DNA of 64,000 nt. It comes from Calditrichales bacterium. GTDB taxonomy: Bacteria > Calditrichota > Calditrichia > Calditrichales > J004. Numbering within the stretch: the first letter of the stretch is position 1; the number at the start of each line of letters is the position of its first letter. Shown piece by piece: positions 9,449 through 57,056 of the stretch. Below the pieces are notes generated by a model that made no database searches, was not told where the DNA came from, and saw only the letters and a list, made by a program, of their open reading frames with translations. The position numbers and the translations under genes are program-made. Location of the stretch: NCBI GenBank assembly GCA_015493745.1, contig WGCN01000029.1, positions 5,137-69,136 of the forward strand, given 5' to 3'.

Positions 9449-9454
9449 GGAAAG

Positions 9455-10834: not shown

Positions 10835-10942
10835 AATGCTGTCCCTGCCTTAAATAAACCGTGACTCGGGTTCTTAACCGGATTTCCCGACAATACAGGG
10901 GCATAACCGGTAAATAAATATCTGCTAAAACAGTCCTGGAAC

Positions 10943-10964
10943 CATCGCCGGTAAACCGGCGATG
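10943..10964 (-). terminator. Perfect 9-bp stem / 4-nt loop hairpin 7 nt downstream of the MbtH-like gene stop
   Basis: The + strand reads catcgccgg-taaa-ccggcgatg. On the transcript it is followed by GUUCC rather than a U tract, so terminator function is uncertain. Confidence 0.3.
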
Positions 10965-10971
10965 AAAAGGT

Positions 10972-11184
10972 CTAGTTTTGCGCGTCCATTTTTTCGCGCA
11001 GGCTTTTAGGCCGCATATCGGTCCAAACCTCTTTTACATAGTCCAGGCACTCCTGCTTGCTGCCGGATTTACCGGCATCTTTCCAACCCGGTGCGTTTTC
11101 ACGGTCGGCCGGCCAAATTGAGTATTGCTCTTCATCGTTAACAACAACCTTGTAAACGGTTTTGTCTTCGCGTTCTTCACTCAT
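10972..11184 (-). CDS. MbtH-like protein
   Basis: 70 aa carrying the signature [28 protein letters not shown]...[15 protein letters not shown]. 4-bp ATGA overlap with the MFS gene. Confidence 0.95.
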
Positions 11185-26247: not shown

Positions 26248-26285
26248 CGATTTTTAAATCTCGTCTATGGTTATACCGTATGGGT

Positions 26286-32669: not shown

Positions 32670-32726
32670 AGAAATAATCGTAAATCCTCATTGATTAGCT
32701 TTTAAAAAGGAGCCCGGCGGCGCCGG

Positions 32727-43500: not shown

Positions 43501-46500
43501 TATCAGATCGGTCATGCGCTGCGGCTTTGTATTCTGGTCAAATTCCAGCTCGAAACGGTATTCGGGATGAATGGTCAGATAAGGGGTACCGTCGCGGTTG
43601 GTAAAAGAAGTTCTCAATATCTCATGACGTTCCACCACCAACCGGATGCTTTGCTGCAGAATCTCCCGCTCCAGGGGGCCGTGTATGCGCAAAGCCAGAT
43701 TGATATTGTAAGCTGTGGTGCCCGGGTTAAACTGATCGATAAACCACAGGCGCTGTTGCGGCAGGGAAACCGGTAAGCGGTCATTCCGGGACACGGGTTC
43801 CAGCGGAGGAAGGGCCGGTTTATTGCCCATGGCCTGCTCCATTTCCACCAGCAGGGCCTGGCGGGCGATGGTGGTGGCCTCGAACAGGGCCGCCAGGGGG
43901 ATTTCCACGTCAAAGGCCTGGCGAAAGCGCGTCACCAGCCGCGTTGCGAGGATGGAGTGTCCTCCCAACTGAAAAAAATCGGTATGGATACTGATGTTGT
44001 CCGTTTCCAGAATGTCCTGCCAGATGGAGTGGATTGTCCGTTCGATCTCATTGGTGGGAGCGACGACGGTTTGCGGGCTGTCCGTTACGGGGCCCGGCTT
44101 CGGCAGGGCCCGGCGATCCACCTTACCGTTGGGAGTGAGCGGGAAGTCTTCCAGGGGGATGATATGCACGGGGATCATATAATCCGGCAGCCGGGAGGCC
44201 AGGGCGGAACGCATGCCTTGCGGGTCGATCTCCGCCCGGGATGCGGGTATGACATACGCCGCCAGTTGTTTGTTGCCCGCCTGGGGCTCATACACCGTGA
44301 CAACGGCCTCACGAATTTGCGGAAGCTGCGCCAGATGATGTTCAATTTCGCCCAGCTCGATGCGGAAACCGCGTATTTTCAGTTGAAAATCGATCCGTGA
44401 CAGATAGTCGATATGGCCATCGGGCAAACGGCGCACCAGATCGCCGGTGCGGTACATACGGGTACCGGGGACGGATGCGTAGGGATCGGCGATAAATTTT
44501 TCCGCCGTCAGGCCCGGTCGGCGGTGATAGCCGCGCGCCAGTTGCACGCCGGCGATGAACAATTCACCGGGTACGCCCACCGGCACGGGATTCAGCCGCT
44601 CATCCAGAACATAGATACGGGTATTGGCCACCGGCAATCCTATGGGAAGCAGGGCGTAGGGTGATTCCACGGGACAGGGGTACCAGGTGACGTCAACGGC
44701 CGCTTCCGTGGGACCGTAAAGATTGTGCAGTTCGGCGTTCAGTTTTGAGAAAAAGCGATTTTTCAGATCATAGGGAAGCGCTTCGCCGCTGCAGATTACT
44801 CTTTTCAGCGACCGGCACGTTTCCACCTGCCATGCTTCCAGAAAAACCTGCAACATGGGCGGCACAAAGTGTATGGTTGTAACCTGATGATCACGGATAG
44901 CCTCCACCAGATAGGCGGTATCCTTATGTCCGCCGGGACGGGCAATGACCAGCGTGGCGCCATACATCAGGGGCCAGAAAAACTCCCAGACGGAAACGTC
45001 AAAGGTGAAGGGGGTTTTTTGTAAAATACGATCCTCCTCGGTGAGGGGGAAGGTGTCCTGCATCCATTGCAGGCGATTGCGTATGGCCTCGTGGGAAACC
45101 AGTGTGCCCTTGGGCCGGCCGGTGGAACCGGAGGTGTAAATCATATAGGCCGCTTGTTGCGGCTCCGGATGCAGCGGCGGATTGTCGTCACGCTCTTCGG
45201 GCAGGGCCTGGCGATCCACCACCAGGATGTTTTGTCCCCTGAGCAGGGCATCATCCTTATGGTGCGCCGTGCATAGCAACAGACGGGCATTACTGTCTTC
45301 CAGCATGAAAAGGACACGATCGCGCGGGTTATCGGGGGCGATGGGCACATAGGCGGCCCCGGCTTTATGGATGGCGTAAAGGGCAAGCACCAGTTCGATG
45401 GAGCGCTCCATATACACCGCGATACGGTCATCCGGCCGTACGCCCATTTTTATCAGGTGATGGGCCAGGCGATTGACGGCACGGTTGAACTGCGAATAAC
45501 TTAACCGTTCCTCCTCAAAAACAAGCGCCGTCCGTCCGGGGGTTGCCGCGGCCTGGCGCTCAAAGCGGACGGGCAGGATTTCAGCGGCATCATAGGCCGT
45601 TTCCGTTTCGTTCCAATGGCGGATCATCTCTTTCGCCTGCGGCGGGGAGAGAAGCTGGTGATACCGTAACGGGGCCGTGCCGTTACGGGCCAGGGAAAGA
45701 ATCAGGTTCTTCATGTGTTGCAGCATGGAAGCGATGGCCTCTTCCGTAAAACGGGTGGGCTGGTAGGAGGCGTCGATGATCAGTTCGCGGTCGGCCGCTA
45801 TCAGGAGTGTCAGCGGGAAGTTGGTCTGTTCGTAAACGGCAAAATCGGTCAGAGTCAGGCTGGTTTTTTGTTTACCCATCTCCTCTTCCACCGGGTAGTT
45901 TTCAAAAACCAGAATGCTCTCAAAAAGGGGCAGGGTTCCTTCCACGCCGCTTTGTTTTTGAACATCGGCCAGGGCGCTGTATTCATAGTCGCGCAAGGCG
46001 AGCCCCTGTTGCTGGATTTCCCGCAACCAGAAATTGGTGGCTTTTTCGCCCTCCAGGTTTACGCGCATGGGCAGGGTATTGATAAACAGGCCCACCATAT
46101 TTTGCACATCGGGAATCTGAGCCGGGCGTCCCGAAACCGTGGCGCCGAAAATAACTTTTTCCTCACGGCTGTAGTGGTGCAGCAGCAGACTCCAGGCCCC
46201 CTGAACCACGGTATTGATGGTAACGTTTTCCCGCCGGGCCATCTGCCGTACCTGCTCCGCCTCCTCCACGGTAAGGCGGATACTTTTCTTGCCATAACGA
46301 TCGGCCCGGGTTACGGGATTGGGCAGCCTGTCCACATTAAAGGGCGTGGGGGCGCTGACATCGGCCAGAAGTTCCTTCCAGTACCGGGTCGCTTGTTCCT
46401 TATCCTGTTTTTGCAGCCAGACGATGTATTCTTTAAAGGGCCGGGCCGGCGGCAAGTCCACCCGGCCGCCCCGCATGGCGGATTCATAAAAGAAAAAGAG

Positions 46501-46989
46501 CTCCTTCAGCAGCACCGGGTTGGACCAGCCGTCCAGAATAATATGGTGATTGCTCCACAATACCTGCCACCGTTCTTTGTTCAGGCGGATAAGATGGATG
46601 CGCAGTAACGGCGCCTTGGACAGATTAAACCCCCGGCGCCGGTCTTCGTCCAACAGCCGTCGGAAAGCCCTGTCCTGTTCATCGGCGGACAGATCCTGCC
46701 AGTCCAGCAAGGTCAACGGCAGATCAACGGTTTTACGAACCACCTGAAGCAGTTTTTCACTTTTTTTGTAGATAAAGGCCGTGCGTAAAACGGCATGCCG
46801 CTGTATGAGGTTGCTCAGGGCCTGTTTAAAACGCTCCATATCTATCGTGCCGCGGAGCTTGAAAAACATCTGCTCGTTATAGGTCGGGCTGTCCGGTTCC
46901 AGCAGGGCATGGAACAACATGCCTTGCTGCATCGGTGACAGGGGATAGATATCTTCTATATTTTTTTTAGGGGACGTATTTTTATTCAT
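40525..46989 (-). CDS. NRPS, modules 4-5 (DCL-type C-A-T-C-A-T)
   Basis: N-terminus IEDIYPLSPMQQGMLFH. HHIILDGWS and HHIISDGLS. Codes DVWHISLVDK (Ser) and DAWTIAAVCK (Phe). Carriers GGHSILATR and GGHSLLATR. Acidic tail LDDLSEDELNALLNDSDGDEDEHE. Confidence 0.97.
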   Translation of the reverse strand: MNKNTSPKKNIEDIYPLSPMQQGMLFHALLEPDSPTYNEQMFFKLRGTIDMERFKQALSNLIQRHAVLRTAFIYKKSEKLLQVVRKTVDLPLTLLDWQDLSADEQDRAFRRLLDEDRRRGFNLSKAPLLRIHLIRLNKERWQVLWSNHHIILDGWSNPVLLKELFFFYESAMRGGRVDLPPARPFKEYIVWLQKQDKEQATRYWKELLADVSAPTPFNVDRLPNPVTRADRYGKKSIRLTVEEAEQVRQMARRENVTINTVVQGAWSLLLHHYSREEKVIFGATVSGRPAQIPDVQNMVGLFINTLPMRVNLEGEKATNFWLREIQQQGLALRDYEYSALADVQKQSGVEGTLPLFESILVFENYPVEEEMGKQKTSLTLTDFAVYEQTNFPLTLLIAADRELIIDASYQPTRFTEEAIASMLQHMKNLILSLARNGTAPLRYHQLLSPPQAKEMIRHWNETETAYDAAEILPVRFERQAAATPGRTALVFEEERLSYSQFNRAVNRLAHHLIKMGVRPDDRIAVYMERSIELVLALYAIHKAGAAYVPIAPDNPRDRVLFMLEDSNARLLLCTAHHKDDALLRGQNILVVDRQALPEERDDNPPLHPEPQQAAYMIYTSGSTGRPKGTLVSHEAIRNRLQWMQDTFPLTEEDRILQKTPFTFDVSVWEFFWPLMYGATLVIARPGGHKDTAYLVEAIRDHQVTTIHFVPPMLQVFLEAWQVETCRSLKRVICSGEALPYDLKNRFFSKLNAELHNLYGPTEAAVDVTWYPCPVESPYALLPIGLPVANTRIYVLDERLNPVPVGVPGELFIAGVQLARGYHRRPGLTAEKFIADPYASVPGTRMYRTGDLVRRLPDGHIDYLSRIDFQLKIRGFRIELGEIEHHLAQLPQIREAVVTVYEPQAGNKQLAAYVIPASRAEIDPQGMRSALASRLPDYMIPVHIIPLEDFPLTPNGKVDRRALPKPGPVTDSPQTVVAPTNEIERTIHSIWQDILETDNISIHTDFFQLGGHSILATRLVTRFRQAFDVEIPLAALFEATTIARQALLVEMEQAMGNKPALPPLEPVSRNDRLPVSLPQQRLWFIDQFNPGTTAYNINLALRIHGPLEREILQQSIRLVVERHEILRTSFTNRDGTPYLTIHPEYRFELEFDQNTKPQRMTDLIRSATSEMAATVFDLSKLPLLRMKIIALGEEDYLLCGVIHHIISDGLSMGILIREVLQNYDALSRGENPQPPPLPFQYADYAHWQRQWLSGDILERHIGYWKEHIGLQPPVLELPTDFPRPAVQTFNGRQFDFELESGLTQALNRFSRENGVTLFMTLMTAWQILLHRYSRQHTILIGTPVTGRLLEEANALIGFFVNTLVIKGQYDSDTTLKEALMRIRRNVLEAHAHQSLPFEQLVDLLQPERDLSHPPLFQAAFILQNRQTTEPEISGLRFEEIVPDSVVAKVDISLYASETREGLRLRLEYNSDLFRENTIERMARHLSMLLSSMTANPAGRVSRLNFMPDEEQALLLSGARAAAQEDIPFSAVPRAFKAVAAGDPGHAALIMNERIVSYGELDTLSDSVAGKLINMGVTPGSLVGICMSRGPEMIIAMLAILKAGAAYLPLDPTYPAERLRYMTGDSNTTRILTNAETAAHSRAVFGEHISQYTLETLLDLKDTSQEMPEIHPQQTAYVIYTSGSTGKPKGTLLHHAGLLNLAREQKKAFHIDKESRILQFASLSFDAATWETFMALLNGATLILIDSETQASVEKLQEALVERNISTVTLPPSVLSLFDDRPMPGLRTIITAGEKCPQALVKRFQPGRQMVNAYGPTETTVCASLYETDAREEADPPIGYPLGGFDLHVLDEHLQLLPVGVPGELCIGGVGLAHGYLNRPDLTEEKFIAHPYGPPGARLYRSGDLVKRRDDGAIEFLGRIDHQVKLRGFRIELGEIQNSLLAIDEVQDAYVMVREDITGEQRLTAYIATAEELKSVALRKVLAEHLPEYMIPASFVFMKSLPLTSNGKVDRAALPVPEMDREQLSTEFVAPRNEQEETIAAIVRDLLHLEQVGIHDNFFELGGHSLLATRFVARLRDNLAVEVPLRLLFENPTIEGMARVLSGPDVRIIDKDEPLLEALDREQEDDDELLDSLDDLSEDELNALLNDSDGDEDEHE

Positions 46990-46998: not shown

Positions 46999-47946
46999 TT
47001 AATTCCAATCTTCATCGCTGTATAGTTTATCGCTTACCGGGGAGGTTAAATGACGAATCGTATCTATTTCCCCGGTGGATAGCTGGGACTGCCATATCTT
47101 TATGTTCTCCAGACTGTTGCGCCGGAGAGTGTGCATTTTACCCTCCTTAGCCGCCGTGCGGTTTTGGGCGCCCGTGAATTTTTCTATTTGTCTTATTATC
47201 GAATCATCATAGACAAGACCAATTTCCCGGTATATTTTTTTAAAACTTTCGATAGGTTTCCTGGAAAGGTCTTCATGGCGGTAAAAAAGCCAGTCCTTGT
47301 GTCCATCGCGATACCGCAGCATAACCGTGGTAAAGATATTCCACACCAGGGCCTGGGTTTCGATGCTAAAGGGAATGAACTCTTGCGGCGCCCATTTGAG
47401 TATCTCGTCTCTGAAGTCCGCCAGCACTTCCTCCATAAGCGCCTCCTGCCGGGCCAGCCAGTCAAAGTTAAAGCCCCACTTCATCCTTTTCATACTGTTG
47501 ATGTATGCCGCGGGATGGCGGAACAGAAAAAGCATGCGGATATCGAGCCGGCGGCCAAGCCAGGGGGCCATGAAGATGGCAAAGGGATCCTGAATAACGG
47601 GGCGCATATGTTTTTTAAGGCGATGGTTGAGGGTAAAGTAACGCACCAGGTGATACAAATGGTACTTGGGCGAGGATGACTGCTTCATGTATATCTTTAA
47701 TTCCTGCCCGCTCAGACTAAGCCCCAGTCCGCTGCGCATTTTAAGAAACAACTCTTCATCCACTTCGGGAAAAAACGGGAAATTGGTACCGGCCCCAAAC
47801 AGGTGGATCGGTTCCCTTAAAAAATTAAACGGTTCCAGAACGTAAAACATCTCCGGTGACAAGGCGATCATTTTCGCCGTCCAGGTTGTACCGGATCGTT
47901 GCAGGCCGCTGACCAGAAGTGGTTTTTTGGTGTAATTTTCAGACAT
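46999..47946 (-). CDS. Sulfotransferase family protein (third free-standing copy, between two NRPS genes)
   Basis: 315 aa. PAPS loop SGLQRSGTTWTAKM near the N-terminus. LFLFRHPAAYINSMKR is the 3'-phosphate motif region. 9-bp gap to the downstream NRPS start and 203-bp gap to the upstream NRPS stop. Confidence 0.8.
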   Translation of the reverse strand: MSENYTKKPLLVSGLQRSGTTWTAKMIALSPEMFYVLEPFNFLREPIHLFGAGTNFPFFPEVDEELFLKMRSGLGLSLSGQELKIYMKQSSSPKYHLYHLVRYFTLNHRLKKHMRPVIQDPFAIFMAPWLGRRLDIRMLFLFRHPAAYINSMKRMKWGFNFDWLARQEALMEEVLADFRDEILKWAPQEFIPFSIETQALVWNIFTTVMLRYRDGHKDWLFYRHEDLSRKPIESFKKIYREIGLVYDDSIIRQIEKFTGAQNRTAAKEGKMHTLRRNSLENIKIWQSQLSTGEIDTIRHLTSPVSDKLYSDEDWN

Positions 47947-48149: not shown

Positions 48150-51100
48150 CTATTCCAGGTCATCCAGCTCGGACAGAATATCATCCAACTCGTCCTGATC
48201 CACGCCCGCTTCACTGAAATCCGATGGCGTATAGCCGCCCGCATCCCCGCTCAGGCTGTGTTCAATGATTTCCTCAAGGGCCGCTATAAGCTGCCGGGCC
48301 AGGGACTCGATTCCGCTTTCTTCAAGCGTACCGGCGGAATAGTTAAAGTTGAAATTCAATTTACCGTCCAAAATACTTGAAGTAATCTCAAGCAGGTGAC
48401 TGCGCCTGTTCAGCGGCCCCACCTCGTCCCCGGTTTCGCCGGGCATCATCTCAAAACGTCTTTTCATGGCTTCATCCTGCTCAAACTGACCGAGATAGTT
48501 AAACAGGACGGTGGCCCGGGGCAGCCCGGCCATGGCCGCGCGTATTTCATCCCCGGCCAGGTAGCGCATCAGCCCGTAGCCCATGCCGTTTCCGGGAATG
48601 GAACGGAAATCTTCCTTAATGTTTTTAATGATTTCACCCGTATCCCCGGCCGTGGTATGCAGATGAAAGGGGTAGAGCGTGGTAAACCAGCCGATGGTAC
48701 GGGCCAGATCCACCTCTTCGAACAGGGCTTCCCGGCCGTGACCCTCCATGTCGATGAGCAGGCTCCGTTTTCCGTGAAGCCGGCGCCAGGCCATGAACAG
48801 AGCGCTGAGTATATTTTCCACGATGCGTGTGTTATAGGTCTCCGGCACTTCCCGTTGCAGCTTGTCGGTTAAGGCGGCCGACAGGCTTACCGAAAGGGTT
48901 TTCATCTCCTTTTGCAGGTTTTCGCCTTTACCGTCGGCCGTAAGCGTAACGGCCTCCGCGCCGATATGCCGCTGCCAGAAATTCAGTTCATCCTGCCAGT
49001 CGTGTTCCCGGGCATATCTTTGTAAGCGTTCGGCCCAATAGCGGAACGAGGTCGATTTGGCAGGCAAAGAGGGTTCCGCCCCTTCCTGCAGCCGGGCATA
49101 GGCCCATTGCAGGTCTTCCAGTAAAATACGCCAGGAAACGGCGTCCACCACCGTATGGTGCATGGAGATAAACAGACGGTCTCCCAAACGGCCGTCCAGG
49201 GAAATATAGACCATTTTAAACAGGGGACCGTTTATAAAATCATGTCCCGCCTGCGTGCGGCGGACTATTGCCTGCAATTCTTCCTGTTGCCGTTTCAGGT
49301 CAAGCTTTTTTAGGTCATACCGGGCAAAAATATCCTGTTCCGCAGGCGCAGCGATCTCGGGACCACTATCCGGCCAGCGCAGGCGCAGCATGTCATGATG
49401 GGTGAAAAGGGTGTGCGCCACTTTTTCCAAAAGGGTGGTATCCAGCTCTTCATGACTTTTCAGCATGATCGACTGGTTCCAATGATGACGCCGGGCCAGG
49501 GGGAGTTCCGAAAACCAGCGGAGTATGGGAGTGGCGGTAAGCGCGCCGGAGACCGGCTCCTGTTCGGCGTGTATGGCCACACCCTCGCGGGCCACGGCCG
49601 CCAGTCCTTCGATGGTCGGGTATTCAAACAACTCGCGGGGGGTAAAGCTGAGTCCCGCGCGTCCGGCGGCGGAAATAAGCTGTATGCCCACGATGGAATC
49701 ACCGCCCAGTTCAAAGAAATTGTCCAAAACACCCACTTTTTCCAATTTGAGCGTTTTCTGCCAAAGTTCGGCCAGCAGGGCCTCCCGTTCATTCCGGGGA
49801 GCCACATAACTTGTTTCCAACCGGCTGCGACCCAGTTCCGAGGGATCGGGCAGGGCTTTGCGGTCGATCTTTCCGTTGGCGGTCAGGGGAATGGCCTCCA
49901 CAAAAATCCAGGCCGAGGGAATCATATAATCGGGCAGGGCCGATTTTAGCTCCTCACGCAGGGCACCCGGCGACGGCTGTTCGTCACGGCTGACGATATA
50001 GGCCACCAGGGCTTTTTCACTGCTGCCGAAAGCACGTACCAGTACCACGCAATCCTCCACGGAGGGCAGGTGGCGCAGAGCCTGTTCGATCTCCCCCAGT
50101 TCAATACGGAAACCGCGCACCTTGACCTGATGGTCGATGCGGCTGATGTATTCGATCTCCCCGTTTGGCAGAAAACGGCACACATCGCCGGTTTTATACA
50201 TGCGTGCGCCGGGACGGCTGCTGAAAGGATCCGGGATAAACTTCTCTGCGGTCAGATCGGGACGGTTGGCGTAGCCGCGGGCCAGTTGAACGCCGCCGAT
50301 ATGCAGTTCACCGGAAACACCCACGGGCACCGGGTTCAATGCCGGATTGAGAATGTAGAGCTGTGTATTGGCCACGGGACGGCCGATGGGCAGTTTCTCA
50401 TCCTCCCGTTGACTTGGGCAGGTGTAGTGGCTGACGTCGATGGAGGCCTCCGTGGGGCCGTAAAGGTTATGCAGCCGCGCCGAGGGCAGAATGCGGTAAA
50501 AATCGCGGCTCAGGGCGTAGGGCAGGGCCTCGCCCGAGCAGATAACATTTTTCAGGGAAGCACAGCCGGCGGCGGCAGGATCCTCCAGGAATACCTTGAG
50601 CATGGGCGGCACAAAATGCATGGTGGTGATATGTTCCCGTCGGATCAGCTCCGTAAGATAGGCCGTATCCTTGTGTCCTTCCTCCCGGGCCACCACCAGT
50701 CGCGCGCCATACATAAAAGGCCAGAAAAATTCCCAGACAGAAACATCAAAACTAAAGGGGGTTTTTTGCAGAACCGTATCCGCTTCCGTCAGCGGGTAGG
50801 CCTGCTGCATCCATTGCAAACGGTTAAGAAAACCCTCATGGGGTAACAGGGTACCCTTGGGCTTGCCTGTCGAGCCGGAGGTGTATATCATATAGGCCAG
50901 TTGCCGGGGATGGAAATCCGTTTTTGGCACAGGCGCGCCTGTACCGTCCAGCTCTTTATCCCAGTGGTCGGTTAGCACCAACCGGGTCGTCGTATCGGCA
51001 AATTTTTCGCTCAGGTCTGAGGAGGTGATAACGATCGGCGCTCCGGCGTCTTCCAGCATAAAACGTGTACGCTCCAGCGGATGCGCCGGATCCAGCGGCA

Positions 51101-54100
51101 CATAAACGCCTCCGGCGCGCATAATGCCGTGCAGGGCGATTACCAGCTTATCGGAGCGCTGCAGGCATACGCCCACGCGGTCTTCCTTTTTCAAACCGCT
51201 TTCCCTCAGGATGTGAACCAGCCGGTTTATCCGCCGGTCAAACTCATCGTAAGGGATCGTTTTGCCCTCATAGGTCAATGCCGGAGCGTCGGGTGTTTTC
51301 CCCGCCTGCTCCATGATCCGTTCCGGTACGGTTTTCCCCGTGTCGTAGCGCACCTCCGTCCGGTTCCACTGATAAAGGAGCTTGCCTTGCTCATCACCGG
51401 TACAGAGGGTGATGTTCCGCACCGGGGTATCCGTAGCGCTAACCACCTGCCGCAGGAGGTGTTTATAATGTTCCAGCAGCCGTTCAATGGTGTCATCGCG
51501 GAACAGGGCGCTGTTGTACTCAAAGGCGCCGCGTAAATTATCACTGTCAAACATTTCCAGCAACAGGTCAAATTTGGCCGTACCGCTGTCGGTGCGGTAA
51601 GGCTTTACCTGAAAGTGTTTGCTAAACTCGCGGGTATCATCCCCCTGCATGGAAAACATCACCTGAAAAAGAGGGGTGTGTTCCAGACTGCGTTCCACCT
51701 TAAGGGCGTCCAGCAGCTTTTCAAAAGGGTAATCCTGATGGCTGAGTATTTCCCGCGCCTTCTCCTGAACCCGGGCCAAAACATCGCGAAAACGGTCACC
51801 TTCTTTAAAACGGGTACGCATAACGATGGTATTGACAAAAAAGCCGATCAGGGCTTCCATTTCTTTTTGTGTTCGTCCGGCCACGGGGGTGCCGATAAGC
51901 ACATCGTTCTGGTTGGCATAATGATGCATCAATGTCTGAAAGGCAGCCATGAGAACCATAAAGGCGGTGGTGCCTTCGTCGGTACAGCAGTTGCGTATTT
52001 GCCGGGAAAGGTCTTCGCCCAGATCAAAATAAATGCGCCTCCCCTCGGCCTGGCCTCCCGCTTTGCGCGGAAAATCGGTGGGGATTTCCAGCAGCGGAGG
52101 CGCTCCCGCCAGTTCTTTCTCCCAAAATTGCAACTGACGGCGGGCATGGTCGCTTTCGATCCACTCGCGCTGCCAGACGGCCACATCTACATATTGTATG
52201 GCCAGGGGAGCCGTGTCCGGCTGCTGTTTTTCCACAAGACGGTCGTAATTCCGGCTCAGCTCGTGAATGAATATACCGTTCGACCAACCGTCGGTAATGA
52301 TGTGGTGGGCCACCAGCACCAGTATGGATTCATCTTCCCGCAAACGGATCAGATCCGTATGAAACAGGGGCAGCGTATCCAGTTGAAAGCTCACCCGGGA
52401 AAGGGCTTCCACCAGTTGGCGCGCTTTGTCTTCCGCCTCGCCAAAGGGCAGGGCGCGCAGGTCGTGTACCCTGAGCTTACAATGAAAACGGCCGTGGATT
52501 TTTTGCATGCCCTGTCCTTCCACCGTGTGAAAGGTGGTGCGCAGGATTTCATGCCGGTTTATCAGAAAATTCAGGCTTTGCTCAAACAGCCTGCTCTCCA
52601 CCGCTCCGTGGATGCGTATGGCTCCCGGTACGTTGTATTGCTTGTTACCCGGTTCCAGCTGGTCAATAAACCACAGACGCTGCTGGGCAAAGGAAAGCGG
52701 CATATAGGTTTGCCGGGCCACGCTTTTGATACGGGTCAGTTCGGCGGAAAAAACAGACGGGGATATTTCCGTCCGGGTTTCGTAATTAAACAAGGCGGCC
52801 AGTTCTTCCGTCCGCGCCGACAGAAAATCTTCCTTATGGAATTTGCGCCATTTATCGGCAACATTGTTGTTGATGTTTTGATGCAGGTAAAATTTAAAAT
52901 CACCAACCATCTGTGAGCTGTCCTTAAGGCCGTCGGTCATTTTTTGCCCCTGATACGGCTGAAGCATTTCTTCGGAAAAGGGGAGGGACAGAAAATCACA
53001 CAGACGCCGTATTTCCGCTTCCGGCCGGAAAAGCAAATCTTCAAAACGCAGCAGGATATGCCGCTCACCCGGTATCCGCTGCAAAAAGTCCAGAATATTT
53101 TGATGACTGTTAAGCCAGATCAGTTCTGCCAGTTGCTGACGGTTAAAGGGGTGTTTGTACTTAAAAAAGTTTTTATCCAGCTTGGCTTCGATAAAAGAAT
53201 AGATCATGGCGTAGGGATGCCGCAACAGATGGATATAGAGCGGCTGGTCAAAATCCTCTTCGGCCCGTTGCAGGATGGCCGGATCCAGGGCATAGGACGG
53301 TGTCTTGTCGACCAGCAGTTTCTGCTGGAGCCCCTCCTGCAGAAAATGATAAAAGTCCTTTACCGTGGTATCCTTGTTTTCGATATCACGCATAATCTTT
53401 TCGGCCTCTGCGGTGGAGAGGTGTTTGATCTCTTTCAGGGCCTGGGTGGTGGCTTCCAGCCACAGCGGCAGCTTTTCTTCCTTAAAAAAGCGATAACGCT
53501 CGCCCATGGTATTGAAGGAGAGAAGGTCTAACTCCGGTGGTGAAAACAGACCCGGATTCCCGGCCAACATGACCCGCAACAGGGTGGAGCCTGAGCGTGG
53601 CGGGGAAAGCAGAAAAACGGCTTTTTTATTTTTAGCCTTGTGCACCGGAGGAACCGTGCGCGGGGCCAGGGGCCGTACAATGCCCCGGAAGAGTTCGATG
53701 TCTTCCTCACGCAGCTTGTTTTTGGCCGATATGGGACTGCTGGACAGGACATAGTTCTTTTGTTCGGGAAAGGAAACATTGAATTGTTTCAGCACTTCCT
53801 GGGAAAAATATTCCTGGGCAAACATGGCAAATTCGGCGATACGCGGAGCCTGAAAGATCATGCCCACATGCAATTTTTGCTCCACCACCTCCTGCAAGCG
53901 GTTCATCAGCACCGCCGCCTTAAGCGAGTTCCCCCCCAGATCGAAGAAATTGTCATACATACTGATTCTCGAAACACCGAGAATATCCTGCCAGACCTCT
54001 GCCAGGTAAGACTCCAGCCGGTTCCGGGGGGAAACAAAACGGGCCTTGGCACGGGAAGTCTCTATGTTGATGTCCGGCAAGGCGCGGCGGTCGATTTTCC

Positions 54101-57056
54101 CGTTGGCGGTTAGCGGAAAGCTTTTTAGGGCGATGAAAAAGCCGGGAATCATATAGTCGGGAAGTTTCCGGCCGGCATATTGGCGCAGGTCGTCCGTCGG
54201 AATTTCCTGACCGTTTTCCGTAACATACCAGGCGGTGATGGCCTTTTCCGCGGACTCACCCCGTACCAGTACGACACATTCTTTAATTTTCGGGTGATCA
54301 AGCAACACCGCTTCTATTTCACCCAGTTCGATGCGGAAACCGCGCACCTTAACCTGATGGTCGATACGTTCCAGATATTCGATGTTGCCGTCGGGAAGAT
54401 AGCGGCACAGGTCGCCGGTTTTATACATCCGGCCGCCGTTGGCGGAGGTATAGGGATTGGCTATGAATTTTTCCGCGGTCAGAGCCGGCCGGTTGGCATA
54501 ACCGCGCGCCAGTTGCACCCCGGCGATGTAGAGCTCGCCCGCCACGCCCGGCGGTACGGGATTGAGGGCCTCATCCAGGATATAAACCCGGGTATTGGCT
54601 ATCGGCTTGCCGATGGGCAGCTTTTTATCGGATCGCTCCTGTGGGCAGATATAGGCGGTTACATCAACCGCTGCTTCCGTCGGCCCGTACAGGTTGATCA
54701 GGGTCGTATCCGGCAGGGTGCGGTAAAATTGTTGGCTCAGGGCATAGGGCAAAGCCTCTCCCGAGCAGATAACCCGTTTCAGCGAGCGGCATTCCGCGCT
54801 TTGCCGGTTTTCCAGAAAGACCTTGAGCATGGGTGGTACAAAGTGCATGGTGGTAACGCCGTGGCTCCGGATGATGTCGCAAAGATAGGCGGTATCCTTA
54901 TGACCCTCGGCATGAGCCACGGCCAGGGTGGCACCGTACATGAAGGGCCAAAAAAACTCCCAGACGGAGACGTCGAAGCTGAACGGTGTTTTTTGCAAAA
55001 CAACATCGCTCATGCCCAGGGGATAGCTCCTTTGCATCCAGATCAGACGGTTGAGGATGGCGCGATGTTCCAGCAGGGTGCCCTTGGGTTTACCCGTGGA
55101 ACCGGAGGTGTAGATCATGTAGGCCAATTGACGCGGGTCGATTTCAACCTGCGGAGCATCGGCCGCCTGGGAATTGAGCATTCCCAAATCCCTCTCGAGA
55201 ACAAGGGTTTTAACCGGCTGTTTATCAAACAATCCCTTAAGTGCCGGCTGGGTAATCATCAGCTTTACGCCGGAATCTTTCAACATATAGGCGCGGCGGT
55301 CGGCGGGATGGTGCGGATCGAATGGAACATAGGCGCCACCGGCCTTTAAAATCGCGTGCAGGGTGATTACCATTTCCACCGAACGTTCCATGCAAACACC
55401 GACACGGTTGTCCCGTCCCACGCCTTCGGCGATCAACAGGCGGGCCAGTTGATTGCTGCGCCGCTCAAAATCGGCATAGCTGATCCGGCCCTCATCAAAC
55501 AACAGGGCGGGGTGTTCCGGATGTTCCCGGGCGAAACGCTCCGTGTACTGATGGATGAACGGCCTTTGCGGGTAGTCCTCTTCCGTTTGATTCCAGTCCC
55601 CGAGTATGGCCTTTTTCTCTGCCGGCGTCAGAAGATTGATGTGATTCAGGGCGGTGCGCGGCTCGCGGCCGATCTGTTCCAGTAGATGGGTGAAATGGTG
55701 CATCATGCGTTCGATCGTTTCCGGTTCAAACAGGGCGCTGTTGTATTCGATGACACCATGGAGGCTGTCACGGCAGTCTTCCATGATCAACAGCAGATCA
55801 AATTTTGCCGTACCCGTTTCAAAATCTATGTTTTCCAGGGTCAGATCGCCGAAATTGAGCCCGGCCAGGGCGTCGCCCTGAAGTTCAAACATCACCTGGA
55901 AAAGAGGGGAAACCTGGTTGTTCCTTTGGGGTTGTACCTTCTCCACCACCTGTTCAAACGGCACATCCTGATGGTCATAGGCCTGGAAGGCCCGTTTTTT
56001 AACCCGGGAGAGAAAATCGAGAAAAGAGATATCTCCCTGACAGCGGGCGCGGATCACCAGAGTGTTGACAAAAAATCCGATCAGGGTTTCCAGCTCTTTT
56101 TTATTGCGGTTGGCAATGGGGATGCCCACGCCGAAGTCATCCTGATGGGAATAGCGGTACAGCAGGGTCTGGAAGGCGGCCAGCAGAGTAATGAATAAGG
56201 TGGTACCCGCCTGCCGGGATAATTCATGCAGTCTTTTTGTGGTGGCCGCGTCAATGGAAAAGTGATGATGACTTCCCTTAAAACTTTGCACGGCCTCACG
56301 CTTATGGTCGAAGGGCAATTCCAGCAGTGTGGGCATGCCTTTCAGTTCGGAAGACCAGAAATCGAGTTGTTTACGCAGCTTTTTTTCATCGGCGGCATTT
56401 TTTTGCCACCAGGCATAATCAAAATACTGGATGGGCAGGGCCTCGAGCGTGACGGAGGTATCTCCGTTGAAACGGCGGTAAAAGCGGGCCGTCTCATTGA
56501 TGAAAACGCCCATGGACCAGCCATCGGCCACAATGTGGTGGATGGTCAGCATCAAAACATGTGTCTGTTCGTCCAGACGGATCAGCCGGGTACGGATAAG
56601 CGGGGCCCGGGTTAGGTCAAAAGGAGTCTGGGCCTCGGCGGCGGCGATCTCTTCCAGGGAACGGGCATCCTTATTTTCCATGATCAGGGGGATAAAAAGC
56701 CCCTCCGCCTTATGCTGAACAGGCGCCCCTTTTTCGGTGCGGAAGAAAACCTGCAAAACCTCATGACGCTCGACAACGGCATTGATGCTTTTTTCCAGAT
56801 GGGCCGCGTTTAAGGGGCCGTAAAACTTAACCGCCGCACTGATGTTGTACAGCGGGCTTCCGGGAACAAGCTGGTCAAAAAACCATAAACGCTCCTGGGC
56901 ATAGGAGAGGGGATAGCTCTCCCTGTCCGGCCGGGGTTGTATGGTTTCCGGGCGGCTTTCTGCCGTACTCTTTTTTTTGCGGGCCTGTAATTTTTTCAGG
57001 AGAAGTTCGCGCTGTTCAGGGCTTAGGTTTTGCAGCTTTTTGGAAAGATCGCTCAT
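48150..57056 (-). CDS. NRPS, modules 2-3, with an embedded sulfotransferase domain (C-A-T-ST-C-A-T-E)
   Basis: HHIVADGWS and HHIITDGWS. Both A domains carry Ser-type codes (DVWHISLVDK, DVWHISLIDK). Carrier 1 is GGNSLKAAV. A ~280-aa ST insert follows. Carrier 2 is GGDSIVGIQ. E motif MHHTVVDAVSWRIL. Acidic tail DELDDILSELDDLE. Confidence 0.97.
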   Translation of the reverse strand: MSDLSKKLQNLSPEQRELLLKKLQARKKKSTAESRPETIQPRPDRESYPLSYAQERLWFFDQLVPGSPLYNISAAVKFYGPLNAAHLEKSINAVVERHEVLQVFFRTEKGAPVQHKAEGLFIPLIMENKDARSLEEIAAAEAQTPFDLTRAPLIRTRLIRLDEQTHVLMLTIHHIVADGWSMGVFINETARFYRRFNGDTSVTLEALPIQYFDYAWWQKNAADEKKLRKQLDFWSSELKGMPTLLELPFDHKREAVQSFKGSHHHFSIDAATTKRLHELSRQAGTTLFITLLAAFQTLLYRYSHQDDFGVGIPIANRNKKELETLIGFFVNTLVIRARCQGDISFLDFLSRVKKRAFQAYDHQDVPFEQVVEKVQPQRNNQVSPLFQVMFELQGDALAGLNFGDLTLENIDFETGTAKFDLLLIMEDCRDSLHGVIEYNSALFEPETIERMMHHFTHLLEQIGREPRTALNHINLLTPAEKKAILGDWNQTEEDYPQRPFIHQYTERFAREHPEHPALLFDEGRISYADFERRSNQLARLLIAEGVGRDNRVGVCMERSVEMVITLHAILKAGGAYVPFDPHHPADRRAYMLKDSGVKLMITQPALKGLFDKQPVKTLVLERDLGMLNSQAADAPQVEIDPRQLAYMIYTSGSTGKPKGTLLEHRAILNRLIWMQRSYPLGMSDVVLQKTPFSFDVSVWEFFWPFMYGATLAVAHAEGHKDTAYLCDIIRSHGVTTMHFVPPMLKVFLENRQSAECRSLKRVICSGEALPYALSQQFYRTLPDTTLINLYGPTEAAVDVTAYICPQERSDKKLPIGKPIANTRVYILDEALNPVPPGVAGELYIAGVQLARGYANRPALTAEKFIANPYTSANGGRMYKTGDLCRYLPDGNIEYLERIDHQVKVRGFRIELGEIEAVLLDHPKIKECVVLVRGESAEKAITAWYVTENGQEIPTDDLRQYAGRKLPDYMIPGFFIALKSFPLTANGKIDRRALPDINIETSRAKARFVSPRNRLESYLAEVWQDILGVSRISMYDNFFDLGGNSLKAAVLMNRLQEVVEQKLHVGMIFQAPRIAEFAMFAQEYFSQEVLKQFNVSFPEQKNYVLSSSPISAKNKLREEDIELFRGIVRPLAPRTVPPVHKAKNKKAVFLLSPPRSGSTLLRVMLAGNPGLFSPPELDLLSFNTMGERYRFFKEEKLPLWLEATTQALKEIKHLSTAEAEKIMRDIENKDTTVKDFYHFLQEGLQQKLLVDKTPSYALDPAILQRAEEDFDQPLYIHLLRHPYAMIYSFIEAKLDKNFFKYKHPFNRQQLAELIWLNSHQNILDFLQRIPGERHILLRFEDLLFRPEAEIRRLCDFLSLPFSEEMLQPYQGQKMTDGLKDSSQMVGDFKFYLHQNINNNVADKWRKFHKEDFLSARTEELAALFNYETRTEISPSVFSAELTRIKSVARQTYMPLSFAQQRLWFIDQLEPGNKQYNVPGAIRIHGAVESRLFEQSLNFLINRHEILRTTFHTVEGQGMQKIHGRFHCKLRVHDLRALPFGEAEDKARQLVEALSRVSFQLDTLPLFHTDLIRLREDESILVLVAHHIITDGWSNGIFIHELSRNYDRLVEKQQPDTAPLAIQYVDVAVWQREWIESDHARRQLQFWEKELAGAPPLLEIPTDFPRKAGGQAEGRRIYFDLGEDLSRQIRNCCTDEGTTAFMVLMAAFQTLMHHYANQNDVLIGTPVAGRTQKEMEALIGFFVNTIVMRTRFKEGDRFRDVLARVQEKAREILSHQDYPFEKLLDALKVERSLEHTPLFQVMFSMQGDDTREFSKHFQVKPYRTDSGTAKFDLLLEMFDSDNLRGAFEYNSALFRDDTIERLLEHYKHLLRQVVSATDTPVRNITLCTGDEQGKLLYQWNRTEVRYDTGKTVPERIMEQAGKTPDAPALTYEGKTIPYDEFDRRINRLVHILRESGLKKEDRVGVCLQRSDKLVIALHGIMRAGGVYVPLDPAHPLERTRFMLEDAGAPIVITSSDLSEKFADTTTRLVLTDHWDKELDGTGAPVPKTDFHPRQLAYMIYTSGSTGKPKGTLLPHEGFLNRLQWMQQAYPLTEADTVLQKTPFSFDVSVWEFFWPFMYGARLVVAREEGHKDTAYLTELIRREHITTMHFVPPMLKVFLEDPAAAGCASLKNVICSGEALPYALSRDFYRILPSARLHNLYGPTEASIDVSHYTCPSQREDEKLPIGRPVANTQLYILNPALNPVPVGVSGELHIGGVQLARGYANRPDLTAEKFIPDPFSSRPGARMYKTGDVCRFLPNGEIEYISRIDHQVKVRGFRIELGEIEQALRHLPSVEDCVVLVRAFGSSEKALVAYIVSRDEQPSPGALREELKSALPDYMIPSAWIFVEAIPLTANGKIDRKALPDPSELGRSRLETSYVAPRNEREALLAELWQKTLKLEKVGVLDNFFELGGDSIVGIQLISAAGRAGLSFTPRELFEYPTIEGLAAVAREGVAIHAEQEPVSGALTATPILRWFSELPLARRHHWNQSIMLKSHEELDTTLLEKVAHTLFTHHDMLRLRWPDSGPEIAAPAEQDIFARYDLKKLDLKRQQEELQAIVRRTQAGHDFINGPLFKMVYISLDGRLGDRLFISMHHTVVDAVSWRILLEDLQWAYARLQEGAEPSLPAKSTSFRYWAERLQRYAREHDWQDELNFWQRHIGAEAVTLTADGKGENLQKEMKTLSVSLSAALTDKLQREVPETYNTRIVENILSALFMAWRRLHGKRSLLIDMEGHGREALFEEVDLARTIGWFTTLYPFHLHTTAGDTGEIIKNIKEDFRSIPGNGMGYGLMRYLAGDEIRAAMAGLPRATVLFNYLGQFEQDEAMKRRFEMMPGETGDEVGPLNRRSHLLEITSSILDGKLNFNFNYSAGTLEESGIESLARQLIAALEEIIEHSLSGDAGGYTPSDFSEAGVDQDELDDILSELDDLE
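48237..49559 (-). other. Epimerization (E) domain, module 3
   Basis: Downstream of the GGDSI carrier (Ser codon 49695..49697). Contains HHTVVDAVSWRILLEDLQWAY. The next NRPS in the line begins with a DCL-type C domain. Confidence 0.85.
52782..53627 (-). other. Embedded CurM/olefin-synthase-type sulfotransferase (ST) domain, aa ~1144-1425 of the 2968-aa NRPS
   Basis: AVFLLSPPRSGSTLLRVMLAGNPGLFSPPELDLL (the Ala codon is at 53621..53619), LLVDKTPSY, YIHLLRHPYAMIYSF and LLRFEDLLFRPEAEIRRLCDFLSLPF. It lies between carrier Ser 1044 (53925..53927) and the next C domain, which starts MPLSFAQQRLWF at ~52715. Confidence 0.85.

What the first reader, a model, noticed from the sequence alone, without database searches (positions are those of the whole stretch)
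52782..53627. CurM/olefin-synthase-type sulfotransferase domain embedded inside an NRPS module (T-ST-C), paired with a Ser-type A domain
Seen in sequence: aa ~1144-1425 of the 2968-aa NRPS form an insert between a carrier (FFDLGGNSLKAAV) and the next C domain (MPLSFAQQRLWFIDQLEPG). The insert carries [34 protein letters not shown] (a PAPS-binding loop), LLVDKTPSY and YIHLLRHPYAMIYSF. Established knowledge: from memory, this string closely resembles the ST domains of CurM (curacin A) and the cyanobacterial olefin synthase. In those systems the order is ACP-ST-TE at the end of a PKS, and sulfonation of a beta-hydroxyl creates a leaving group for decarboxylative alkene formation. Here the ST is internal, sits in an NRPS, and is followed by a C domain rather than a TE. 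The A domain of the same module has the hand-extracted code DVWHISLVDK (Ser). Inference: a seryl or peptidyl-seryl thioester is chemically a beta-hydroxyacyl thioester, so it is a plausible ST substrate. Two outcomes are possible: retained O-sulfoserine, or sulfate elimination to dehydroalanine. The second would parallel the CurM leaving-group logic and the phosphorylation/glutamylation-elimination routes known from RiPPs. In-trans sulfonation of a carrier-bound intermediate is known from sulfazecin. I know of no described in-line ST within an NRPS module.
Basis: partly seen in the sequence, partly recalled or inferred. Interest (0 to 1): 0.92.

Follow-up and report, generated by a model that had tools for sequence, protein, structure and literature searches.

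The report
Sulfotransferase domain inside an NRPS module

Summary
Residues 1144-1425 of the minus-strand 2968-aa NRPS (48150-57056) form a CurM/OLS-type sulfotransferase (ST): PDB 4gbm E=5e-71, 42-43% identity, model TM 0.87-0.91. The PAPS loop and the Arg/Glu/Lys catalytic residues are intact. The order is C-A(Ser code DVWHISLVDK)-T-ST-C-A(Ser)-T-E.

- In-line STs in NRPSs are already described (OciA, DysB), there acting on a sulfated glycerate starter.
- A-T-ST-C modules are abundant in metagenomes. About 90 were recovered, and 1130 protein clusters match at E<=1e-30.
- Overall these STs sit after Ser/Thr modules far more often than expected (48/83 versus 8/70).

This window's ST, however, belongs to a distinct clade. 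Its orthologues follow Val or Ile modules, and in two sampled clusters no hydroxylase was recognised. The preceding residue always carries a diamino-acid code, and the ST shows no Ser-specific changes. An extra ST gene appears only in the Ser-rich clusters.

Most likely the domain sulfonates the T-tethered lipopeptidyl chain and the sulfo group is retained. The cluster has four STs. The acceptor is probably in the conserved N-terminal head rather than Ser2. Elimination to dehydroalanine is the least supported reading. I rate it a new variant of a known kind, biochemically untested.

The parts
48150..57056 (-). NRPS gene N2 (2968 aa): C-A(Ser)-T-ST-C-A(Ser)-T-E
   Evidence: ORF, translation, Pfam, domain map, coordinates
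54087..55556 (-). A domain of the ST module (aa 501-990), specificity code DVWHISLVDK (Ser type)
   Evidence: code positions mapped by alignment
53802..54026 (-). T (carrier) domain aa 1011-1085. Its Ppant serine is Ser1044 in GGNSL. It is the most divergent T domain of the cluster (30-49% identity to the others)
52782..53627 (-). CurM/OLS-type sulfotransferase domain (aa 1144-1425). PAPS loop SPPRSGST at 53583-53606. Arg1154, Glu1175 and Lys1251 correspond to CurM Arg39, Glu60 and Lys133. Asp1177 stands where CurM/OLS have His62. A flap-like segment SQMVGDFKFYLH lies at 52881-52916
51372..52721 (-). C domain directly after the ST (aa 1446-1895), HHIITDGWS motif. It is 37-42% identical to the cluster's C domains that do not follow an E domain, and I read it as LCL-type by eye
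48153..51293 (-). Second module of N2: A (Ser code DVWHISLIDK), T, E (HHTVVDAVS)
46999..47946 (-). Stand-alone 315-aa sulfotransferase between N2 and N3. Orthologues occur only in the Ser-rich sister clusters L002 and L003
57080..60433 (-). NRPS N1 (C-A-T), code DAENIGAITK. Glu at code position 3 marks 'mode 1' diamino-acid binding. The code is invariant across the ST clade
   Evidence: PMC12042044
60472..63984 (-). PKS module KS-AT-KR-ACP, cut by the window end. On the source contig it follows FAAL-ACP-KS-AT-...ER-KR-ACP-C-A(Tyr)-T, so it should build a statine-like gamma-amino-beta-hydroxy unit
6549..8710 (-). Two tandem Stf-like stand-alone sulfotransferases (364 and 365 aa, 40% identical to each other). 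They are conserved in the tails of related clusters
12691..46989 (-). Remaining NRPS genes N3-N6 (10 modules, terminal TE). Codes include Ser x2, Phe x2, Gln, Asn, Tyr-type x2-3 and a DVGELASID diamino type

Best explanation
The insert is a functional PAPS-dependent sulfotransferase domain of the CurM/OLS family, fused to the carrier domain of an NRPS elongation module. It belongs to a hybrid PKS/NRPS assembly line from an uncultured Calditrichia bacterium in a hydrothermal-vent metagenome. The line runs FAAL-PKS-Tyr module-PKS(KR), then 13 NRPS modules and a TE.

Shown:
- family membership, fold and intact PAPS-binding and catalytic residues;
- the T-ST-C order;
- three further ST genes in the cluster;
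- the same head architecture in many related clusters: PKS(KR), then C-A(diamino code)-T, then C-A(x)-T-ST-C-A-T-E.

Inferred mechanism: while the chain sits on the ST's own T domain as acyl-(Tyr-statine-like unit)-AA1-Ser-S-T, the ST transfers sulfonate from PAPS to a nucleophile on that chain. The downstream C domain passes the sulfonated chain on, and the sulfo group stays in the final polysulfated lipopeptide.

The acceptor is most likely in the conserved N-terminal head. That means either the side-chain amine of the invariant diamino-acid residue AA1 (N-sulfonation, as SulN does on T-bound Dap in sulfazecin) or the beta-hydroxyl made by the PKS KR. It is less likely the Ser2 hydroxyl, because the ST is conserved when residue 2 is Val or Ile.

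Rough step probabilities: active ST 0.9; acts on the chain on its own T 0.8; sulfo group retained 0.75; acceptor in the head 0.55 against Ser2 0.3.
For: ST identity and integrity:
- establish family and fold.
- The residues matching CurM Arg39, Glu60 and Lys133 are invariant in 131-133, 130 and 133 of 133 aligned homologues, including this window and L004.

Clade structure: an NJ tree separates clade A from a mainly Ser/Thr/Tyr/Dap-associated clade B. Clade A holds the window, L001-4 and L080-L096.

In clade A:
- The own-module A code is Ile/Val in 11 loci plus L004, a diamino type in 3, Asn/Asp-like in 1, and Ser only in the window and L001-3.
- The A code one module upstream has Glu at position 3 in 15/15 cases (D[APQ]ENIGAIT in 14). 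Outside the clade the figure is 7/43.
- In L088 and L093 the ST closest to the window's (62% and 57%) sits directly after that diamino-acid module, as A-T-T-ST.

L004 (Val2):
- T and ST are 76% and 67% identical to the window, in line with L003 at 83% and 71%.
- The cluster tail is syntenic with the window and has no hydroxylase. The unsampled gap is filled by NRPS genes.
- The tail of the L080-type cluster also lacks a hydroxylase.

No adaptation to Ser: there are only two K/R changes specific to the Ser group. All clade-A-specific residues are kept, namely position 62 next to the catalytic Glu and four positions in the low-pLDDT flap-like segment.

ST315 is present only in the Ser-rich clusters (window, L002, L003).

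Retention:
- four STs in this cluster;
- Stf-like ST pairs conserved in related clusters;
- the described in-line NRPS STs (OciA, DysB) give retained sulfates;
- STs at least 70% identical to each other serve Ser, Thr and Dap-like modules, and an N-sulfo group on Dap is not an obvious leaving group.

Sulfonation of a T-bound peptide has a precedent in sulfazecin SulN (PMC11298585).
Against: - No biochemistry exists for any A-T-ST-C module that I could find.
- By usual assembly-line logic, and in the described cases (CurM, OLS, OciA, DysB), the ST acts on the beta-hydroxyl of the unit on the adjacent carrier. Here that is Ser2.
- The class-wide Ser/Thr enrichment (48/83 versus 8/70) supports that logic.
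- A hydroxylase encoded elsewhere, or an unrecognised one, could hydroxylate Val/Ile in the sister clusters.
- The tree is a crude NJ tree without support values.
- Most clade-A loci share one conserved head, so the 15/15 count is not 15 independent observations.
- Stachelhaus codes are predictions. The identity of AA1 (Dap, Dab, Orn or Lys) is unknown.
- The CurM residue roles are recalled from the McCarthy 2012 paper, which I could not open.
Confidence: 0.5

Rival explanations
1. The ST O-sulfonates the side-chain hydroxyl of Ser2 while it is seryl- or peptidyl-seryl-S-T, and the O-sulfoserine is retained in the peptide.
For: The ST is fused to the T domain loaded by a Ser-coded A domain. 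Seryl-S-T is a beta-hydroxyacyl thioester, like the CurM/OLS substrates. It is also the amino analogue of the glyceryl-S-T presumed for OciA and DysB. In-line STs follow Ser/Thr modules in 48/83 cases, against 8/70 for the downstream control (Fisher p=1.5e-9, loci not independent). Three further cases follow SulA3-like Dap codes, which also place a beta-nucleophile there. Some clade-B loci (L107, L127, L136, L005) have a D[AV]E[ND]-type diamino code at n-1 followed by a Ser/Thr-ST module, which resembles this window.
Against: The window ST's own clade is mostly behind Ile/Val modules. Sister L004 has Val2 with an intact ST and no recognisable hydroxylase. There is no Ser-specific change in the ST. 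An extra ST gene (ST315) was gained together with the Ser residues. Only one of the four Ser modules has the ST.
Confidence: 0.24
2. Ser2 is O-sulfonated to make a leaving group. Sulfate is then eliminated to give dehydroalanine, or is displaced intramolecularly to give an oxazoline, aziridine or beta-lactam. This happens before or during transfer by the downstream C domain.
For: The chemistry is plausible: an acidic alpha-H on a thioester with a beta-sulfate. Sulfate serves as a leaving group in CurM/OLS. Other ST-fold enzymes that use sulfation for dehydration or ring closure appear among the fold hits: retinol dehydratase 1x8k and LGS1 22ga. No E domain follows any of 91 T-ST units, against 23/168 other T domains (p=4e-5). 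That would fit loss of the alpha stereocentre, but an architectural constraint explains it equally well, and it also holds for the Val/Ile modules.
Against: Everything listed against Ser2 as the acceptor applies here too. The downstream C domain has an ordinary HHxxxDG motif and shows no dual-E/C-like feature by eye. The cluster's three other STs and the conserved Stf-like pairs argue for a sulfated end product. The described NRPS in-line STs retain sulfate. I found no literature on ST-mediated Dha/Dhb formation in NRPSs.
Confidence: 0.08
3. The ST domain is a catalytically silent relic or a structural spacer in this cluster.
For: No activity data exist. Position 62 is Asp where CurM and OLS have His.
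Against: Arg, Glu, Lys and the PAPS loop are invariant. Position 62 varies across the whole family: H 64, E 23, Y 22, Q 9 of 133. The ST is conserved at 64-79% identity across Calditrichia orthologues and 52-62% across distant metagenomic relatives, as well as or better than the neighbouring C, A and E domains. The model is confident.
Confidence: 0.05

Closest known systems
CurM ST (curacin A) and OLS ST (Synechococcus olefin synthase), PDB 4GBM / 4GOX
   Same: Same domain family and fold: E 5e-71 and 5e-67, 42-43% identity, TM 0.84-0.91. Same PAPS loop, same Arg/Glu/Lys active-site residues, and the same fusion to the C-terminus of a carrier domain.
   Different: Those domains sit as ACP-ST-TE at the end of a PKS, and the sulfate is a leaving group for TE-catalysed decarboxylative alkene formation. 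Here the ST is internal to an NRPS, follows an amino-acid module and precedes a C domain. Position 62 is Asp, not His, and the flap-like segment differs.
In-line ST domains of OciA (cyanopeptolin-1138/oscillapeptin, Planktothrix) and DysB (dysinosin, sponge cyanobiont)
   Same: An ST domain embedded in an NRPS protein. It is assigned to sulfonating a carrier-bound unit, and the sulfate is retained in the peptide (PMC2533009, PMC6520454).
   Different: Those STs belong to starter modules that load glyceric acid through a GA/FkbH-type domain. Here there is no FkbH domain. The ST is in an elongation module with a normal A domain, and the acceptor may not be the module's own unit.
Sulfazecin SulN acting on SulM
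   Same: PAPS-dependent sulfonation of a peptide still tethered to an NRPS carrier domain, with a diamino-acid side chain as acceptor (PMC11298585, PMC12042044). The clade-A pattern of a diamino-acid code at or next to the ST module is reminiscent of this.
   Different: SulN is a separate protein acting in trans on the last module before a beta-lactam-forming TE. Here the ST is in cis and mid-line. AA1 has a 'mode 1' code (Glu at position 3), not the SulA3 Dap code.
Uncharacterised metagenomic A-T-ST-C, A-T-ST-TE and T-ST-T-ST NRPS modules (loci L001-L006, L008, L074, L080-L158)
   Same: Same architecture. The window is a member of one clade of them, sharing the PKS(KR) | C-A(diamino)-T | C-A-T-ST-C-A-T-E head.
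   Different: Most other members, in clade B, pair the ST with Thr, Ser, Tyr or Dap-like codes. None has a known product.

Membership tests
CurM/OLS-type sulfotransferase domain (Pfam PF13469 Sulfotransfer_3) | Significant sequence and fold similarity to CurM ST and OLS ST | tested here: met
   Pfam 92 bits against a cutoff of 27. phmmer E=5e-71 and 5e-67. 42-43% identity. Foldseek TM 0.87/0.91 and 0.84/0.91 on a pLDDT-90 model.
   R1154, E1175 and K1251 are present. These columns are invariant or nearly so in 133 homologues. My numbering was consistent with the 4gbm chain at an offset of 3.
CurM/OLS-type sulfotransferase domain (Pfam PF13469 Sulfotransfer_3) | His62 next to the catalytic Glu, as in CurM and OLS | tested here: not met
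   Asp1177 in the window and all clade-A members. Clade B has Glu, and the myxobacterial PKS-ST has Asn. The column is variable family-wide.
'Activating' ST-TE chain-termination cassette (CurM, OLS) | ACP-ST-TE order at the end of a PKS module that makes a beta-hydroxyacyl-ACP, with a TE that performs decarboxylative elimination | tested here: not met
   The order is A-T-ST-C. The only TE is at the end of N6, about 35 kb downstream in the direction of transcription.
CurM/OLS-type sulfotransferase domain (Pfam PF13469 Sulfotransfer_3) | PAPS-dependent sulfonate transfer to a carrier-bound substrate | not testable with these tools
   Requires an enzyme assay.
NRPS in-line ST for sulfated glyceric acid (OciA/DysB type) | ST domain embedded in an NRPS polypeptide | tested here: met
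   literature.
NRPS in-line ST for sulfated glyceric acid (OciA/DysB type) | Partnered with a glycerate-loading (GA/FkbH-like) domain in the starter module | tested here: not met
   Pfam finds only C, A, T, ST and E in N2. The module is an elongation module with a Ser-coded A domain.
NRPS in-line ST for sulfated glyceric acid (OciA/DysB type) | Sequence relationship to the OciA and DysB ST domains | not tested
Metagenomic A-T-ST-C modules, clade A (defined here) | T-ST-C order; the ST groups with L001-4 and L080-96; Asp at position 62 and the clade-A flap residues; a Glu-at-position-3 (diamino) A code one module upstream | tested here: met
Sulfazecin-type sulfonation of a T-bound diamino acid (SulN/SulM) | Acceptor is the side-chain amine of a carrier-tethered diamino-acid residue | tested here: inconclusive
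   AA1 code DAENIGAITK fits the 'mode 1' diamino-acid binding described in PMC12042044. The acceptor itself cannot be determined from sequence.

The most novel reading that the evidence does not exclude
The in-line ST installs sulfate on the Ser2 beta-hydroxyl as a leaving group, and the assembly line converts it to dehydroalanine (or an oxazoline, aziridine or beta-lactam). If so, the many Ser/Thr-T-ST-C modules in metagenomes would be a PAPS-driven NRPS route to dehydroamino acids. The Thr/Ser-T-ST-TE termini (L097, L121, L135, L148, L158) would then be an NRPS counterpart of CurM, making C-terminal enamides by decarboxylative elimination.
Probability: 0.08. Interest if true: 0.88.

Novelty: new variant of a known kind. 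Interest (0 to 1): 0.6.

Why it matters
Sulfated non-ribosomal peptides are rare. The only in-line NRPS sulfotransferases I found described act on a glycerate starter unit.

This window shows that CurM-type ST domains are also built into ordinary amino-acid elongation modules. The layout is frequent in uncultured bacteria: 1130 protein clusters match at E<=1e-30, and about 90 in-line STs were read here. I found no biochemical study of it.

Working out the acceptor (Ser/Thr hydroxyl, diamino-acid amine or polyketide hydroxyl) and the fate of the sulfate (retained or leaving group) would add a tailoring rule to NRPS product prediction. It could also reveal a new class of polysulfated lipopeptides with a statine-like head, which may be protease inhibitors.

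The comparison also carries a caution: adjacency of a tailoring domain to an A domain does not by itself identify its substrate.

Tried and rejected
- The CurM/OLS ST structure paper (doi 10.1021/cb300385m, PMC3528841) is not held. Catalytic residue roles therefore rest on memory plus the empirical conservation.
- A literature search for Stachelhaus code strings gave nothing useful. Code assignments rest on canonical codes from memory, except the diamino-acid modes, which come from PMC12042044.
- I tested whether the Ser module of N2 is a recent intra-cluster copy of the other Ser modules. It is not; the A domains are only 51-61% identical.
- I looked for a beta-hydroxylase that could rescue the 'own residue' logic for Val/Ile modules. 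None was found in the L004 or L080-type cluster tails, nor in the +/-10 kb around other clade-A loci. The conserved 325-aa neighbour has no Pfam, NCBIfam or PDB hit, and from its sequence I read it as a signal-peptide lipoprotein.
- I tried to read KR stereochemistry from LDD/W motifs. The result was ambiguous.
- I tested for convergent substitutions in the Ser-associated STs toward the Ser/Thr clade and found none.
- Literature searches for ST-mediated Dha/Dhb formation and for sulfated-serine lipopeptides returned nothing relevant.
- I rejected the idea that the plus-strand ORFs overlapping the region (for example 51615-52916 and 52944-3531) are genes. They are antisense to a strongly supported NRPS reading frame.
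Full report
OBSERVATION

The finding lies on the minus strand. A 2968-aa ORF spans 48150..57056, and window 52782-53627 encodes its residues 1144-1425.

Pfam finds Sulfotransfer_3 (E=6.8e-26, aa 1147-1362) and Sulfotransfer_1 between a PP-binding domain and a Condensation domain. The domain order from my own mapping is C(46-490)-A(501-990)-T(1011-1085)-ST(1144-1425)-C(1446-1895)-A(1922-2399)-T-E(2501-2968).

Against all PDB sequences the two top hits are the CurM ST (4gbm, E=5.2e-71) and the olefin-synthase ST (4gox, E=5.2e-67). The next hit is eight orders of magnitude weaker than significance. BLASTP identity is 42% to CurM and 43% to OLS. An AlphaFold2 model (pLDDT 90) superposes on 4gbm and 4gox with TM 0.84-0.91.

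In a 133-sequence alignment the PAPS loop PxRSGST and the residues matching CurM Arg39, Glu60 and Lys133 are essentially invariant and are present here as R1154, E1175 and K1251. The residue roles are from memory of McCarthy et al. 2012, which I could not open. The numbering was consistent with the 4gbm chain.

CONTEXT

All genes of the cluster are on the minus strand. In order of transcription they are:
- a PKS KS-AT-KR-ACP, cut at the window end;
- N1 (C-A-T);
- N2, the ST protein;
- a 315-aa ST;
- N3, N4, N5 and N6 (ten modules, terminal TE);
- MFS, DUF2238, type II TE and PPTase;
- two tandem Stf-like STs of 365 and 364 aa (40% identical; nearest structures are mycobacterial Stf9 and Stf1);
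- a 325-aa protein with no database hit, which I read from its sequence as a signal-peptide lipoprotein, a sigma-54 activator and a Ser/Thr kinase.

The cluster therefore encodes four sulfotransferases.

The source contig comes from hydrothermal-vent metagenomes and a Calditrichia MAG. It shows that the line begins FAAL-ACP-KS-AT-...-ER-KR-ACP-C-A(Tyr code)-T, followed by the KS-AT-KR-ACP module. This predicts an acylated, Tyr-derived statine-like gamma-amino-beta-hydroxy unit ahead of N1.

The predicted codes that follow are:
- DAENIGAITK at AA1, where Glu at position 3 is the 'mode 1' diamino-acid hallmark of PMC12042044;
- Ser, then D-Ser, then Ser, Phe, Ser and Gln;
- a Tyr-like code, Phe and a DVGELASID diamino type;
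- Asn, Tyr and Tyr.

PRIOR ART

The statement that no in-line ST in an NRPS is described is not correct. [quoted passage not shown] DysB of the dysinosin cluster is an octadomain NRPS with FkbH, MT and 'an unusual sulfotransferase domain' assigned to the sulfated glyceric acid (PMC6520454). In both, the sulfate is retained. A SulM genome-mining figure also lists an in-line 'S' domain (PMC11298585). I found nothing on an ST in an amino-acid elongation module, on O-sulfoserine NRPs, or on ST-mediated Dha/Dhb formation.

HOW COMMON IS THE ARCHITECTURE?

It is very common in uncultured bacteria.
- A genome scan found orthologous C-A-T-ST-C-A-T-E proteins in four other Calditrichia MAGs (64-79% identity).
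- It also found A-T-ST-C in Acidobacteriota and a Chthoniobacteraceae MAG, and PKS KS-AT-KR-ACP-ST followed by an NRPS C domain in cultured Myxococcus and Pyxidicoccus.
- A metagenome scan returned 79 more loci, nearly all with the ST inside NRPS modules. These include A-T-ST-TE termini, tandem T-ST-T-ST and A-T-T-ST.
- An exhaustive HMMER search of 1.84 billion representatives gave 1130 clusters at E<=1e-30. The best 150 are mostly 1,000-7,600-aa proteins with an internal ST.

WHAT DOES THE ST ACT ON?

I extracted the Stachelhaus code of the A domain immediately upstream of each in-line ST. Of 83 codes:
- 32 are Thr-type and 16 Ser-type;
- 3 are Tyr;
- 3 are DIWEITADD, which matches the SulA3-like Dap signature D[VI]WE..ADD of PMC12042044;
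- 7 are Glu-position-3 diamino types;
- 11 are canonical Ile/Val codes;
- 11 are others.

The downstream A domains, used as a control, are Ser/Thr in only 8/70 (Fisher p=1.5e-9; the loci are not independent). After de-replication at 70% ST identity, Thr (13) and Ser (5) are still the largest classes among 48 groups. As a class, then, in-line STs do tend to sit behind residues with a beta-nucleophile.

The window's own ST points elsewhere.

1. Clade membership. An NJ tree places it with L001-4 and L080-L096 in clade A. This is separate from the mainly Ser/Thr/Tyr/Dap clade B.

2. A conserved head. Clade A shares the arrangement PKS(KR) | C-A(D[APQ]ENIGAIT)-T | C-A(x)-T-ST-C-A-T-E.

3. A variable residue x. 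It is Ser only in the window and L001-3. It is Val (canonical DALWLGGTF) in the sister cluster L004, Ile/Val-type in eleven loci, a diamino type in L092 and L095, and Asn/Asp-like in L091.

4. An invariant neighbour. The residue before the ST module has a Glu-position-3 code in 15/15 clade-A cases, against 7/43 elsewhere. In L088 and L093 the ST most similar to the window's follows that diamino-acid module directly.

5. L004's ST looks functional. It has all catalytic residues and is as conserved as in the Ser-type orthologues: T 76% and ST 67%, against 83% and 71% for L003.

6. No hydroxylase recognised in L004's cluster. Its tail is syntenic with the window (MFS, MbtH, ST, TEII, PPTase, ST, hyp, sigma-54 activator, kinase). 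The unsampled stretch is accounted for by NRPS genes. An Ile-type cluster tail likewise has two STs and no hydroxylase.

7. No adaptation to Ser. The Ser-associated STs differ from the rest of clade A by only two K/R changes. They keep every clade-A-specific residue. One is Asp at CurM position 62, two residues from the catalytic Glu; clade B has Glu there and CurM/OLS have His. Four others lie in the segment SQMVGDFKFYLH, which is the least confident part of the model and probably the mobile active-site flap.

8. An extra ST gained with the Ser residues. The stand-alone ST315 occurs only in the Ser-rich clusters (window, L002, L003) among all loci fetched. This suggests that a separate enzyme arrived together with the extra Ser residues.

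MECHANISM I COMMIT TO

The domain is an active PAPS-dependent ST that works on the chain tethered to its own T domain. The sulfo group is retained. The acceptor is more likely in the conserved head than on Ser2. The head candidates are the AA1 side-chain amine, by analogy with SulN on T-bound Dap, or the KR-derived beta-hydroxyl of the statine-like unit.

Retention is favoured for four reasons:
- the four STs of this cluster;
- the conserved Stf-like ST pairs in relatives;
- the OciA and DysB precedent;
- the finding that STs at least 70% identical to each other serve Ser, Thr and Dap-like modules.

Ser2 O-sulfonation with retention is the main rival (about 0.24). Sulfonation followed by elimination is chemically attractive but has no specific support (about 0.08). 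The absence of E domains after T-ST (0/91 versus 23/168) is compatible with it. However, that absence also holds for the Val/Ile modules, so it is more likely architectural.

LIMITS

- All substrate assignments are code-based.
- The tree is distance-based and has no support values.
- Clade-A loci share ancestry, so the counts overstate independence.
- A hydroxylase encoded elsewhere cannot be excluded.
- The OciA and DysB ST sequences could not be placed in the tree.

VERDICT

This is a real, intact CurM-family ST embedded in an NRPS elongation module. It is a new variant of a known kind (in-line NRPS ST), it belongs to a large uncharacterised environmental family, and its acceptor is unresolved.

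Noticed in passing
window 46999-47946 (-), 6549-8710 (-): There are three further sulfotransferase genes in the cluster. One is a divergent 315-aa ST between N2 and N3, found only in the Ser-rich sister clusters L002 and L003. The other two are tandem Stf1/Stf9-like STs, conserved in related cluster tails (L162, L163, L091). The product is probably polysulfated.
   Followed up: partly
L164:1-9962 (source contig upstream of the window end): The assembly line starts FAAL-ACP-KS-AT-...ER-KR-ACP-C-A(Tyr code DASTIAAVC)-T, then KS-AT-KR-ACP. This predicts an N-acylated Tyr-derived statine-like (4-amino-3-hydroxy) unit at the head of the peptide.
   Followed up: partly
L097, L121, L135, L148, L158 (also L123, L128, L156): Some NRPS termini read C-A(Thr or Ser)-T-ST-TE. 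This is an NRPS counterpart of the CurM ACP-ST-TE cassette. It could give C-terminal enamides by decarboxylative elimination.
   Followed up: no
L006:10001-11098, L074:10001-11083, L153: A-T-ST-C modules whose A code DIWEITADD matches the SulA3-like L-Dap signature. This would be an in-cis version of the sulfazecin SulN/SulM sulfonation logic, placed mid-line rather than before a TE.
   Followed up: partly
L092, L095 (C-A-T-ST-T-ST); L088, L093 (C-A-T-T-ST): Tandem T-ST-T-ST units and tandem T-T-ST arrangements occur behind diamino-acid-coded A domains. The T-ST pair seems to behave as a duplicable unit.
   Followed up: no
L007:5168-11152, L048:3-5261: Cultured myxobacteria (Myxococcus sp. RHSTA-1-4, Pyxidicoccus caerfyrddinensis CA032A) carry PKS KS-AT-KR-ACP-ST at the end of a protein, followed by an NRPS C-A-T protein rather than a TE. 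These are experimentally accessible relatives.
   Followed up: partly
L008:233-11038: A Chthoniobacteraceae MAG has KS-aminotransferase-luciferase-like monooxygenase-C-A(Gln code)-MT-T-ST, then C-A-T-TE. The ST follows a residue with no side-chain hydroxyl, but the chain probably carries a hydroxylated beta-amino fatty acid.
   Followed up: partly
protein hits P0008-P0120: Hundreds of stand-alone proteins of about 430 aa pair an N-terminal acyl-carrier annotation or PP-binding hit with a C-terminal ST. Those that carry organism names are mostly cyanobacterial, with some from Thiothrix. They are 45-50% identical to this ST. Their function is unknown to me.
   Followed up: no
all loci with T-ST: No epimerisation domain follows any of 91 T-ST units, whereas 23 of 168 other T domains in the same loci are followed by one.
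   Followed up: partly
window 1761-6506 (-) and L162:11111-15843: A block of a 325-aa apparent lipoprotein, a GAF/sigma-54 activator, a Ser/Thr kinase with a PEGA domain and a 260-aa hypothetical protein is syntenic next to the cluster in the window and in the L004 genome. It may be a dedicated regulatory unit.
   Followed up: partly
window 1-12000 versus 12001-64000: G+C is 0.49-0.51 in the tail and regulatory genes but 0.54-0.60 across the NRPS/PKS genes.
   Followed up: no
L163:3375-6969, L088:3-1124, L091:19706-21097: Choline/carnitine O-acyltransferase-family genes accompany several clade-A clusters but are absent from this window.
   Followed up: no
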